From: a virus
Taxonomy: Duplodnaviria > Heunggongvirae > Uroviricota > Caudoviricetes
IMG/VR virus record: IMGVR_UViG_2802429241_000010
Location: 1-52,885 of that record
Reading direction: 5' to 3' (one strand)
Length of the DNA stretch: 52,885 bases
The notes under the pieces were generated by a model. That model saw nothing but the letters and a program-made list of their open reading frames with translations. It was not told the DNA's origin and searched no databases. The position numbers were made by a program, and so were the translations under genes. The first letter of the stretch is position 1. Each line of letters starts with the position of its first letter. This document shows positions 21,852 through 22,528 of this stretch, in pieces.

Positions 21852-21861
21852 TCCGAAAATA

Positions 21862-21895
21862 AAAAAGCCACCTATTAGAAAGTGGCCTTGTAATG
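21862..21895 (-). terminator. Putative terminator for the moron gene
   Basis: Minus-strand stem GCCAC/GTGGC followed by TTTTTTATTTT. Confidence 0.4.
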
Positions 21896-21906
21896 AATTT
21901 TATTAA

Positions 21907-22437
21907 TTAGCGAGTCAGAAACAACGAATCTTTATACTTTTGCTGTTGTTCATTTAAATACTTAGCTGTTTCATCGCTGGCAAATGGAAATATTACCGTA
22001 TTTTTAGGCATGGTAATTTCTTTTTTGTCCAGCGTCAGAGTAAACATAGGAACATACTGAGCAGAGTAACGCACCGCAGAAACGAGCTCTAGTTTAGACT
22101 CTTCAATAACACTTAAATTATCCAGGCTAACTTTCTCTTCATCTTTTTTCTTTGACGCATTTAAAGTTTTTATTACTTTATTTAATTTCTCCTGAAAATC
22201 CTCCTTAAAGTTTTCAGGATTGCCGTCGACAACAAGAATCTGTTCACCCTGATTATCTGGAAAAATAATCTTTGCACTTATCAATTTATTTTCTTTATAA
22301 ACATCACCAAGTTTTATGGCTCCTCCAGATAACTGAATAATATGTTCATCTTTAAAGGAGATGTTGCCAGAGATTATGAGAGATGAAAAAACAGCCGCTG
22401 CTCCAAGAATTACACTTGCTGTGATATAGCCTTTCAT
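21907..22437 (-). CDS. Moron: secreted or membrane-anchored protein of unknown function
   Basis: 176 aa; N-terminal signal/TM segment MKGYITASVILGAAAVFSSLIISG; AT-rich insert between tape-measure and gp43-like genes. Confidence 0.6.
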   Translation of the reverse strand: MKGYITASVILGAAAVFSSLIISGNISFKDEHIIQLSGGAIKLGDVYKENKLISAKIIFPDNQGEQILVVDGNPENFKEDFQEKLNKVIKTLNASKKKDEEKVSLDNLSVIEESKLELVSAVRYSAQYVPMFTLTLDKKEITMPKNTVIFPFASDETAKYLNEQQQKYKDSLFLTR

Positions 22438-22528
22438 TTTTCGCCTATTAACATTTTTCTAAATGTGCATTAATTCTATCACTCTATTTATGACTTACAA
22501 CCAGCAATACCTGTGAGGGGAATCCTGG

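What the first reader, a model, noticed from the sequence alone, without database searches (positions are those of the whole stretch)
21852..22528. AT-rich moron with signal peptide inserted inside the tail module
Between the tape-measure gene and the gp43-like DNA-circularization gene, where Mu-type tails normally have contiguous genes, there is a ~680-bp AT-rich insert. It encodes a 176-aa protein with an N-terminal signal or membrane anchor and is followed by a hairpin plus T-run (21862–21895), with an AT-rich putative promoter region upstream. This is the organisation of an independently expressed lysogenic-conversion gene, possibly superinfection exclusion or a surface factor.
Basis: partly seen in the sequence, partly recalled or inferred. 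Interest (0 to 1): 0.5.

Follow-up and report, generated by a model that had tools for sequence, protein, structure and literature searches.

The report
Membrane-anchored accessory gene in prophage tail
A small AT-rich accessory gene, encoding an uncharacterised membrane-anchored periplasmic protein, fills a swap-in slot between two tail genes of an SfV-like E. coli prophage; it is a typical "moron", possibly a block on other phages, but its function is untested.

Summary
Window 21907-22437 (-) is a real 176-aa gene under purifying selection (dN/dS 0.04-0.17). Its GC is 0.35 against 0.52-0.58 in the flanking tape-measure (TMP) and gp43/N hub genes. A hairpin plus T-run follows it.

The insert is absent from SfV, SfII and SfI and from about half of the E. 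coli prophages sharing this junction. The junction is a cargo hotspot found in 1083 of 5426 complete E. coli genomes, with at least five unrelated cargos. This gene is the commonest (179 genomes), and four of the five cargos have envelope-targeting N-termini.

The protein has an N-terminal transmembrane helix and no cysteine, so it is not a lipoprotein. A confidently modelled ~150-aa alpha/beta domain (pLDDT 91.5) matches nothing in PDB, Pfam, NCBIfam or PADLOC.

Relatives sit in the same slot in six other genera. They also occur in the baseplate modules of unrelated E217/Pam3-like myophages, after Q in a lambdoid prophage, in a McrBC/HipA island, and as a lone relic beside icd in Lelliottia. 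The gene is therefore mobile accessory cargo, not a tail part.

Two corrections: the terminator position belongs to the phage backbone, since empty sites have one too, and the promoter signal is no better than chance. Superinfection exclusion is the best guess (about 0.35). Verdict: a new member of a known kind, of moderate interest.

The parts
21870..22530 (-). Exchangeable cargo cassette (about 660 bp) that differs from the empty site
   Evidence: Homology to empty-site and other-cargo loci runs up to window 21869 on the N side and resumes at 22530-22535 on the TMP side. GC of 21852-22528 is 0.341. No target-site duplication or terminal inverted repeats were found.
22473..22500 (-). Sigma-70-like promoter candidate, TTGTAA-16 nt-TAGAAT with an upstream TG (extended -10)
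   Evidence: where it is not above the shuffle expectation. The -35 TTGnnA and -10 nnnAAT elements align in register with loci L003, L017 and L007. Pooled test over 13 loci: P about 0.08. Inferred, not shown.
22438..22528 (-). 91-bp AT-rich leader between the TMP stop codon and the X start codon
   Evidence: GC 0.352. No terminator-like site lies between TMP and X, so late-operon transcripts would read into X. No Rfam family matches.
21907..22437 (-). Gene X: 176-aa protein, member of an uncharacterised family (phrog_5485; RefSeq WP_000679481.1 'hypothetical protein')
   Evidence: The start methionine is invariant in alignment A1. dN/dS is 0.04-0.17. 77 clusters at 50% identity were found by profile search.
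22369..22434 (-). Residues 2-23: N-terminal transmembrane helix (signal anchor, or possibly a cleaved signal peptide)
   Evidence: Mean KD 2.09 over residues 5-23 and no cysteine. AF2 models a helix at 2-23. 56 of 58 family members have an equivalent hydrophobic N-terminus and 1 of 58 has a lipobox.
21910..22368 (-). Residues 24-176: predicted periplasmic alpha/beta domain. A conserved G-x-[VI]-[KR]-L-G-x-[VI]-Y-x-E motif lies just after the helix, and V-x-Y-x-S-E-x-x-P-x-F-x-L lies in the long beta-hairpin.
21853..21889 (-). Intrinsic-terminator-like hairpin (stem 21889..21864) plus T-run, immediately before the GGAG ribosome-binding site of gene N
   Evidence: Empty sites and the other same-strand cargos carry a hairpin with a different stem but a closely similar T-run and ribosome-binding site. 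SfII has an annotated terminator here.
22529..24361 (-). Upstream flank: tail tape measure protein (610 aa)
   Evidence: PF10145 and TMP PHROGs.
20517..21845 (-). Downstream flank: Mu gp43/N-like DNA-circularisation / baseplate hub protein (start probably ATG 21845)
   Evidence: PF07157, phrog_184. The RefSeq annotation is 1329 nt long.

Best explanation
Gene X is the cargo of a moron-type cassette sitting in a recombinational hotspot between the tape-measure gene and the gp43/N hub gene of an SfV/e14-like prophage integrated at thrW.

It encodes a small bitopic inner-membrane protein: a short cytoplasmic N-terminus, one transmembrane helix, and a ~150-residue alpha/beta domain in the periplasm. 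The domain has no conserved catalytic-looking residues, so it most likely acts by binding something.

Transcription is inferred to come from two sources. One is a weak own promoter in the 91-bp AT-rich leader, active in the lysogen. The other is read-through from the late tail operon during lytic growth, since nothing terminates transcription between TMP and X. The hairpin after X would stop transcripts that are not antiterminated by the phage Q protein.

The most likely job is envelope-level protection of the lysogen or infected cell against incoming phages, that is, superinfection exclusion. The periplasmic domain at the inner-membrane surface would interfere with the tail-tip/tape-measure step that opens the DNA channel, as HK97 gp15 and T4 Imm do.

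**Shown:** real gene; foreign composition; presence/absence polymorphism; hotspot with alternative cargos; mobility between hotspots of unrelated phages; hydrophobic N-terminus; no cysteine; confident fold with no PDB match.

**Inferred:** topology; own promoter; expression in the lysogen; the exclusion function and its target.

**Sub-confidences:** accessory moron cargo rather than a virion part, about 0.9; membrane-anchored periplasmic protein, about 0.75; anti-phage exclusion function, about 0.35.
For: **Insert and polymorphism**
- X is absent at the same site in SfV, SfII and SfI.
- The junction occurs in 1083 of 5426 complete E. coli genomes. An evenly spaced sample of 60 records gave 28 empty, 10 X, 10 other cargo and 12 undetermined.
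- Cargo counts in genomes: X 179, SKA5-type 85, OB-fold 72, 225-aa lipoprotein 55, bPH_1 28.
- The cargos are mutually unrelated.
- Four of the five have envelope N-termini: a transmembrane helix, a signal peptide, an LLGGC lipobox, and a transmembrane helix plus OB fold.

**Foreign composition in every lineage.** X has GC 0.33-0.42 against 0.49-0.60 in the flanks.

**Faster or independent evolution.** X is 42-55% identical where N is 69-74%, P 83% and the sheath 75%.

**Mobility between contexts**
- The same TMP|N slot in Leclercia (two species), Edwardsiella, Lonsdalea, Mangrovibacter and a metagenome.
- Baseplate modules of unrelated E217/Pam3-like myophages, at two different positions.
- Directly after Q and before the holins in a lambdoid Citrobacter prophage.
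- An Alkanindiges island carrying HipA and McrBC.
- A 770-bp relic beside icd in Lelliottia (TMP 3' end, leader, intact X and terminator) with no other phage genes nearby.

**Own terminator-like hairpin** after X in most contexts.

**Protein.** Transmembrane helix plus a confident alpha/beta domain.

**Precedent.** The HK97 gp15 moron lies next to the TMP gene, inserts in the inner membrane and blocks DNA entry in a tail-dependent way (PMC3594210). T4 Imm binds the TMP (bioRxiv 10.64898/2026.03.06.709160).
Against: - **No homology to any known exclusion or defence protein.** Pfam (which holds YebO and Imm models), NCBIfam and PADLOC all returned nothing. Only PHROGs of unknown function match.
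- **Promoter evidence is at chance level**. Several homologous loci show no consensus promoter. One (L102) overlaps the upstream tail gene by 4 bp, and Edwardsiella has no terminator after X. Expression could therefore be purely late.
- **No depletion of second SfV-like prophages.** X-bearing genomes are not depleted of a second SfV-like TMP|N junction: 12 of the 60 best X records have 2 or more such places, against 2 of 50 non-X records in the spread sample. Overall there are 0.12 extra places per record. This gives no support for exclusion of same-type phages.
- **Absent from isolated phages.** X was not found by tblastn in 50,697 deposited phage genomes, so no isolated phage is available in which its role has been seen.
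- **No paper mentions it**.
Confidence: 0.45

Rival explanations
1. X is a lytic-cycle accessory protein rather than a lysogenic-conversion gene. It would be transcribed only as part of the Q-antiterminated late operon. It would act late at the inner membrane or periplasm, for example by blocking secondary injections into an already infected cell, by protecting progeny from wasteful ejection into lysing cells and debris, or by modulating lysis.
For: - X is co-oriented with the late genes in every phage context: the SfV-like slot, two positions in E217-like baseplates, and the Q-lysis site.
- There is no terminator between TMP and X.
- The L102 copy overlaps the preceding tail gene by 4 bp.
- The Edwardsiella copy has only 13 bp and no hairpin before N.
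- Promoter signals are not significant.
Against: - The Lelliottia chromosomal relic keeps an intact X, its leader and its terminator with no late operon upstream, and dN to the phage-borne L003/L017 copies is low at 0.10-0.13 (dN/dS 0.039 against L003).
- An X relative sits in a non-phage island with McrBC and HipA.
- A hairpin plus T-run directly after X in most loci fits an autonomous unit.
- A near-consensus TTGTCA-16-TATAAT lies upstream in L097.
Confidence: 0.2
2. X benefits the bacterial host in a way unrelated to phages. It could be a periplasm-facing fitness or immunity factor, for example orphan immunity against periplasm-acting colicins or type VI effectors, or an envelope-stress, colonisation or surface factor carried as lysogenic-conversion cargo.
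For: - The bitopic periplasmic topology is typical of immunity proteins against periplasm-acting toxins (general knowledge; topology).
- X is retained as a lone chromosomal gene in Lelliottia.
- The hotspot cargo is dominated by envelope proteins.
- There is no sign that same-type phages are excluded.
Against: - No similarity to any immunity or virulence family.
- No adjacent toxin or effector gene in any context examined.
- The hosts range from gut, plant, fish and environmental Enterobacterales to a Moraxellaceae. This argues against a niche-specific virulence role.
- X is inner-membrane anchored, not surface exposed.
Confidence: 0.2
3. X is a structural or assembly component of the contractile tail, for example a hub- or tape-measure-associated ejection protein whose hydrophobic helix inserts into the target membrane.
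For: - X is repeatedly located next to the tape measure, hub or spike genes in two unrelated myophage tail types.
- It has a hydrophobic helix, like the membrane-inserting segments of tape measure proteins.
Against: - X is absent from SfV, SfII, SfI and roughly two thirds of related E. coli prophages. These either have nothing here or carry unrelated cargo, one of them on the opposite strand.
- X is also found after Q in a lambdoid prophage, in a defence-type island, and alone in a chromosome.
- It has foreign GC content.
- It matches no structural PHROG.
Confidence: 0.03

Closest known systems
HK97 gp15 moron (Juhala et al. 2000; Cumby et al. 2012, as summarised in PMC3594210)
   Same: - A foreign-GC insert inside the tail operon, directly beside the tape-measure gene.
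- A small inner-membrane protein.
- An accessory gene that is absent from close relatives.
- It has homologues outside prophages: YebO for gp15, and the Lelliottia and Alkanindiges copies for X.
- It is the functional model for what X may do: block DNA entry in a tail-dependent way.
   Different: - No sequence relationship. X has no Pfam hit at all, although Pfam includes the YebO family.
- X carries a ~150-aa folded periplasmic domain, whereas gp15 is described only as a small protein that inserts in the inner membrane.
- X lies downstream of the TMP gene; gp15 lies upstream.
- X lives in a contractile-tail (Mu-type) module, not a siphovirus tail.
- The function of X is untested.
T4 Imm (superinfection immunity protein)
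   Same: A phage-encoded inner-membrane protein that blocks genome translocation. It has recently been shown to bind the tape measure protein of a contractile-tail phage (bioRxiv 10.64898/2026.03.06.709160).
   Different: - Imm is an 83-94 aa protein modelled with a hydrophobic helical core embedded in the membrane (same preprint). X has one transmembrane helix plus a soluble alpha/beta domain.
- No homology was detected.
- Imm belongs to a virulent phage; X rides in temperate prophages.
Lipoprotein or outer-membrane exclusion proteins (T5 Llp, phi80/N15 Cor, S. thermophilus TP-J34 Ltp)
   Same: Prophage- or phage-encoded envelope proteins that stop infection at or before DNA entry. Ltp is reported to act on the tape measure protein (my own knowledge; Ltp is described in PMC3952083).
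   Different: - These are lipoproteins or outer-membrane-associated. X has no cysteine and so cannot be lipidated.
- No homology.
- A neighbouring cargo of the same hotspot (225 aa, LLGGC lipobox) fits this class better than X does.
Known phage cargo hotspots (P2 Z/fun and old/tin loci; the lambdoid Q-lysis moron site, e.g. in SfIV)
   Same: A fixed slot between conserved genes in which unrelated accessory genes alternate among otherwise similar prophages. Examples are P2 (bioRxiv 10.1101/2024.10.15.618418) and the SfIV moron between Q and the lysis cassette (PMC3851460). An X relative occupies exactly that Q-lysis site in Citrobacter.
   Different: - I found no description of the TMP|gp43 slot of SfV/e14-like phages in the papers searched.
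- Its cargos are single small genes, mostly envelope proteins, rather than multi-gene cytoplasmic defence systems.

Membership tests
Moron (Hendrix/Juhala definition) | Extra DNA present in one phage but absent at the same position in close relatives | tested here: met
   The TMP-N gap is 18-60 bp in SfII and in empty E. coli sites, against 677 bp here. About half of the sampled junctions are empty.
Moron (Hendrix/Juhala definition) | Base composition different from the surrounding genes | tested here: met
   GC 0.345 against 0.516 and 0.559 in the flanks. The same contrast holds in ten other phage loci.
Moron (Hendrix/Juhala definition) | Own promoter | tested here: inconclusive
   There is one sigma-70-like site with an extended -10 at 22500..22473, but 2.9 such sites are expected by chance. 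It aligns in register in 4 of 5 aligned loci. Pooled over 13 loci, 5 have hits against 2.5 expected, P about 0.08.
Moron (Hendrix/Juhala definition) | Own terminator | tested here: met
   A 10-bp hairpin plus T-run follows X. X relatives in other phage types also carry one. Caveat: empty sites have a terminator at the same position, so only the stem is cargo-specific.
Moron (Hendrix/Juhala definition) | Expressed from the repressed prophage | not testable with these tools
   This needs RNA-seq, 5'-RACE or proteomics of a lysogen such as ETEC H10407 (ETEC_RS01640).
Known superinfection-exclusion families (HK97 gp15/YebO, T4 Imm, and PHROGs or PADLOC models annotated as exclusion or defence) | Detectable sequence homology to a family member | tested here: not met
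   No Pfam, NCBIfam or PADLOC hit at E <= 1. The only PHROG matches are phrog_5485 and phrog_34391, both of unknown function.
Known superinfection-exclusion families | Blocks plating or DNA entry of a challenge phage | not testable with these tools
   This is an experimental question. The only genomic proxy, depletion of a second SfV-like prophage in X+ genomes, showed no depletion.
   X contains no cysteine. Only 1 of 58 family members has a lipobox-like motif.
Bitopic inner-membrane (signal-anchor) protein | A single N-terminal hydrophobic helix long enough to span the membrane, with the rest of the protein soluble | tested here: met
   There is a 19-residue hydrophobic stretch at residues 5-23. 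AF2 models a helix at 2-23 followed by a compact alpha/beta domain. This is conserved in 56 of 58 relatives. Signal peptidase cleavage (I-S-G|N) cannot be excluded without a dedicated predictor or an experiment.
Mu/SfV-type tail structural proteins | Conserved presence and synteny in all phages with this tail type | tested here: not met
   X is absent from SfV, SfII, SfI and most related prophages. In other prophages it is replaced by unrelated genes.

The most novel reading that the evidence does not exclude
X founds a previously unrecognised family of exclusion proteins, spread mainly among Enterobacterales prophages, with a new periplasmic fold. On this reading, its recurrent placement beside the tape-measure, hub and spike genes of two unrelated contractile-tail lineages would reflect a functional link. 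The membrane-anchored domain would intercept the tail-tip/tape-measure complex at the inner membrane. The TMP|gp43 slot of SfV/e14-like prophages would then be a dedicated hotspot for envelope-level anti-phage cargo: five unrelated cargos, four of them envelope proteins.
Probability: 0.3. Interest if true: 0.55.

Novelty: new member of a known kind. Interest (0 to 1): 0.35.

Why it matters
If X and its hotspot neighbours act at the cell envelope, this slot gives a compact set of five single-gene candidates for inhibitors of phage entry or other envelope modifiers. One or more of them occurs in about 8% of complete E. coli genomes (419 cargo occurrences in 5426), including the reference ETEC strain H10407.

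Such genes are missed by current defence-system catalogues: PADLOC found nothing. They influence which therapeutic or environmental phages can infect a strain.

The protein also has a confidently predicted fold with no solved relative, so a structure and a binding partner would be new information.

If it proves to have no phage phenotype, it remains an ordinary moron of unknown benefit.

Tried and rejected
**Homology searches that gave no functional lead**
- Pfam, NCBIfam and PADLOC on X.
- Pfam on all 58 family members.
- PDB sequence-profile search.
- tblastn against 50,697 phage genomes found no match at all.

**Fold searches**
- Foldseek against viral models gave one hit to an unnamed 'Lipoprotein' of Pseudomonas phage ventosus (E 3e-5, TM 0.44/0.52). 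It was obtained with the poor model only. I treated it as a lead, not evidence.
- The afdb50 library was unavailable.

**Context searches that failed**
- The 58-sequence alignment was too divergent for the pattern scan.
- Single distant members found nothing useful in viral contigs.
- The genome-contig scan returned one locus only.

**Ideas rejected**
- The other hotspot cargos as diverged alleles of X: hhalign probabilities were about 1% or less.
- Transposon-like insertion: no target-site duplication or terminal inverted repeats.
- A non-coding RNA in the insert: no Rfam hit.

**Literature**
- Searches for the accession numbers, the H10407 locus tag and the hotspot found nothing.

**Promoter**
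- The promoter enrichment test across homologous loci was not significant.
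Full report
**1. What is in the sequence**

The minus strand of window 21907-22437 carries a 176-codon ORF, here called X. It lies between two tail genes:
- The tail tape measure gene at 22529-24361 (PF10145 and several TMP PHROGs).
- The Mu gp43/N-like gene at 20517-21851 (PF07157 DNA_circ_N; phrog_184 'baseplate hub').

GC falls to 0.34-0.35 across the insert and is 0.53-0.60 on both sides. Per gene, X is 0.345, TMP 0.516 and N 0.559.

The consensus scan of 21500-22900 found one terminator-like site. It has a 10-bp stem at 21889..21864 followed by a T-run. 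As RNA it folds at -12.9 kcal/mol, z = -2.8 against dinucleotide shuffles.

The scan also found one promoter-like site, TTGTAA-16-TAGAAT with an upstream TG, at 22500..22473. Shuffles give 2.9 such sites on average, so on its own this is not evidence.

No ORF of 40 aa or more lies on the other strand of the insert. No Rfam family matches.

**2. The surrounding element**

The window is an SfV/SfII/SfI-type prophage with a Mu-like contractile tail. It has these features:
- A tyrosine integrase at 50263-51426, next to tRNA-Thr(CGU) at 51441-51516 and a proA-like gene. This is the classical thrW site of this phage group.
- A Q-type antiterminator at 39418-40170. This explains how late transcription could pass internal terminators.

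**3. It is a true insert in a cargo hotspot**

In SfII the TMP stop and the N start are 18 bp apart by the record's annotation, and the record annotates a rho-independent terminator there. An 'empty' E. coli site has a 60-bp gap:

TGAAAAATTAATCTGTTAATGAGTCCCACTTCGGTGGGCTTTTTTATATCCGGAGTTTAT

Homology between the window and empty or other-cargo loci runs up to window 21869, inside the T-run. It resumes at 22530-22535, at the TMP stop. No target-site duplication or terminal inverted repeat flanks the insert. Exchange by homologous recombination in the flanking genes is therefore the simplest route (inference).

The junction is present in 1083 of 5426 complete E. coli genomes. An evenly spaced sample of 60 records split as follows:

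| Class | Records |
|---|---|
| Empty | 28 |
| X | 10 |
| Other cargo | 10 |
| Matched only on the N side | 12 |

At least five unrelated cargos use the slot:

| Cargo | Features | Genomes |
|---|---|---|
| X (this gene) | N-terminal transmembrane helix | 179 |
| 170-aa protein, also in phage SKA5 | Signal peptide | 85 |
| 148-aa protein, opposite strand | Transmembrane helix plus OB fold (PF12869) | 72 |
| 225-aa protein | LLGGC lipobox | 55 |
| 125-aa protein | bPH_1, cytoplasmic | 28 |

Profile comparison shows no relationship between X and the other envelope cargos. Four of the five cargos carry envelope-targeting N-termini.

**4. Correction on the terminator**

The empty site and the other same-strand cargos all end with a hairpin, a closely similar T-run and the GGAG ribosome-binding site of N. 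Only the stem sequence differs. The terminator position therefore belongs to the phage backbone and is not a signature of this particular insert.

It still means that any transcript entering X without Q modification should stop before N. The start of N is probably ATG 21845 (GGAG upstream; the RefSeq gene is 1329 nt long), not GTG 21851.

**5. X is a real, conserved gene of an uncharacterised family**

A word-indexed search found only about 25 relatives, all in Enterobacteriaceae. A full HMM scan with their profile found 77 clusters at 50% identity. Nearly all are 170-180 aa and share the same architecture.

Members occur in:
- Escherichia, Leclercia, Lelliottia, Edwardsiella
- Citrobacter, Enterobacter, Salmonella, Mangrovibacter
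- Lonsdalea, Serratia and Alkanindiges

All are named 'hypothetical protein', apart from one UniRef label of 'Secreted protein' for the Leclercia pneumoniae copy.

Where dS was not saturated, pairwise dN/dS between loci is 0.04-0.17. No member matches any Pfam family. X itself has no NCBIfam or PADLOC hit. It matches only phrog_5485 (full length, E 4e-108) and phrog_34391, both of unknown function. tblastn found it in none of 50,697 deposited phage genomes. It is common in IMG/VR prophage contigs.

**6. The protein**

Residues 5-23 are strongly hydrophobic, and the protein has no cysteine, so it cannot be a lipoprotein. Of 58 relatives, 56 have the same N-terminal hydrophobic segment.

With the shallow 14-sequence alignment AlphaFold gave a poor model (pLDDT 59.6). 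With the 58-sequence alignment it gave pLDDT 91.5 and pTM 0.76:
- A helix at residues 2-23.
- Then a compact alpha/beta domain: strands 33-36, 39-42, 46-58 and 70-72, helix 74-93, a long hairpin at 114-126/132-143, and helix 149-171.

The most conserved positions form a G-x-[VI]-[KR]-L-G-x-[VI]-Y-x-E motif just after the membrane helix. A second motif, V-x-Y-x-S-E-x-x-P-x-F-x-L, lies in the hairpin. No typical catalytic constellation is conserved, so I infer a binding protein rather than an enzyme.

The 18-19 residue hydrophobic stretch and the single N-terminal lysine favour an uncleaved signal anchor with the domain in the periplasm. Cleavage after I-S-G cannot be excluded here.

**7. Genomic contexts of relatives**

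- **The same TMP-X-N arrangement** occurs in Leclercia adecarboxylata, L. pneumoniae, a metagenome contig, Edwardsiella anguillarum, Lonsdalea and Mangrovibacter.
  - X keeps its low GC everywhere (0.35-0.42).
  - X is only 42-55% identical, where N is 69-74%, P 83% and the sheath 75% identical.
  - X therefore evolves faster than, or independently of, the tail.
- **Distant members** (about 28-31% identity) sit inside the baseplate modules of a different myophage type, E217/Pam3-like.
  - One lies between the hub-like and spike genes.
  - One lies between the spike-like and sheath-initiator genes and overlaps the upstream gene by 4 bp.
- **A Citrobacter farmeri copy** lies directly after Q and before the holins of a lambdoid prophage, the classic moron site.
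- **An Alkanindiges copy** sits in an island with HipA, McrBC and transposases.
- **In Lelliottia amnigena**, a 770-bp relic lies beside icd with no other phage gene nearby. It comprises the last ~120 bp of a TMP gene, the leader, an intact X and the terminator. icd is the e14 attachment site (my own knowledge).

Most phage-borne copies are followed by their own hairpin plus T-run. Together these contexts rule out a structural tail role. They show a mobile accessory gene that is kept even when the phage is gone.

**8. Is it independently expressed?**

This remains open.

For an own promoter:
- The -35 TTGnnA and -10 nnnAAT elements align in register in the window, L003, L017 and L007.
- L097 has a near-consensus TTGTCA-16-TATAAT.
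- The Lelliottia relic has no late operon upstream.

Against, or neutral:
- The pooled promoter test over 13 loci is not significant: 5 loci with hits against 2.5 expected, P about 0.08.
- X is co-oriented with the late genes in every phage context.
- Nothing terminates transcription between TMP and X.
- The Edwardsiella copy lacks a downstream hairpin.

I therefore expect expression both from a weak own promoter and by late read-through, as for many morons. Neither has been shown.

**9. Function**

Nothing assigns a function by homology or fold. The working model is envelope-level interference with incoming phages. It rests on:
- The topology of the protein.
- The predominance of envelope proteins among hotspot cargos.
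- One relative located in a defence-type island.
- Two precedents. The HK97 gp15 moron sits beside the TMP gene, inserts in the inner membrane and blocks DNA entry in a tail-dependent way (PMC3594210). T4 Imm binds the tape measure protein (bioRxiv 10.64898/2026.03.06.709160).

One crude genomic test did not support exclusion of same-type phages. Among the 60 best X-bearing records, 12 carry two or three SfV-like TMP|N junctions. Among non-X records of the evenly spaced sample, 2 of 50 do. Overall there are 0.12 extra junctions per record. The order of acquisition, defective prophages and duplicated X copies all confound this comparison, so it is weak evidence.

The rivals are a purely late lytic-cycle role, a phage-unrelated periplasmic fitness or immunity role, and (nearly excluded) a structural role.

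**10. Verdict**

Three corrections apply:
- The terminator position is a backbone feature.
- The promoter is unproven.
- The lipoprotein option is excluded.

This is a new, uncharacterised member of a well-known kind of element, sitting in a cargo hotspot that I did not find described in the literature I searched. Interest is moderate.

Noticed in passing
window 37096-38849 (-): A second AT-rich insert (GC about 0.34-0.36) holds two genes: a 429-aa DUF6575+DUF7226 protein and a 155-aa protein with no Pfam hit. It lies between the Q antiterminator (39418-40170) and the holin and Rz genes (36580-36915, 35642-36103). This is the classic Q-lysis moron site, the same place where SfIV carries its moron (PMC3851460).
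   Followed up: partly
window 5939-14025: Beyond the tail-fibre end of the prophage lies a low-GC block (0.36-0.47). It contains a eukaryotic-type Ser/Thr protein kinase (11185-12621, -), a LEM-3-like GIY-YIG nuclease (13201-14025, +), a C5 cytosine methyltransferase (5939-7009, +), and ORFs of 421 and 205 aa with no Pfam hit. These are possibly defence or anti-defence cargo.
   Followed up: partly
window 14083-16844: This looks like a Gin/Pin-type invertible host-range switch. A serine invertase (14083-14673, -) sits next to a tail fibre gene (16062-16844, -) with its assembly protein (15460-16062, -). An oppositely oriented alternative fibre tip (14664-15065, +) and assembly protein (15069-15488, +) lie alongside.
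   Followed up: partly
L007 7812-8581 (Lelliottia amnigena chromosome, next to icd): A 770-bp relic of an SfV/e14-like prophage survives here. Only the 3' end of the TMP gene, the leader, an intact X homologue and the terminator remain. Homology stops exactly at the start of gene N. This looks like a domesticated moron.
   Followed up: partly
L001 3237-3749; L009 510-887; L010 557-1003; L011 499-1176; L012 474-860: Four other, mutually unrelated cargos occupy the same TMP|N slot in E. coli prophages:
- a 170-aa signal-peptide protein, also in phage SKA5;
- a bPH_1 protein;
- a transmembrane-anchored OB-fold protein (PF12869) on the opposite strand, with a 5'-deleted remnant form in L012;
- a 225-aa lipoprotein.

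None has a known function.
   Followed up: partly
L101 6609-7531; L102 7001-7513: Distant X relatives are embedded among the hub, spike and sheath-initiator genes of E217/Pam3-like myophages. They keep the same low GC and a hairpin plus T-run of their own. In L102 the start codon overlaps the preceding tail gene by 4 bp.
   Followed up: partly
L106 6637-7330 (Lonsdalea prophage): In Lonsdalea the slot holds X plus two further small ORFs (119 and 83 aa, no Pfam) before gene N. The hotspot can therefore accumulate several cargos.
   Followed up: no
window 22529-24361 (-), TMP residues about 395-450: The tape measure protein has a long, strongly hydrophobic stretch (VIRGVVGLAAGLAILKLGLMGVGSAISIVSRIMSMTPIGMIATAIALAAGLIITNW). 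This resembles the membrane-inserting segments described for other tape measure proteins (translation; not analysed further).
   Followed up: no
E. coli ETEC H10407, NC_017633.1 325809-326339 (L109 1708-2238): The reference ETEC strain H10407 carries X at 99% identity (ETEC_RS01640, WP_000679479.1) and has a second SfV-like TMP|N junction. It is a convenient strain for expression and deletion tests.
   Followed up: no
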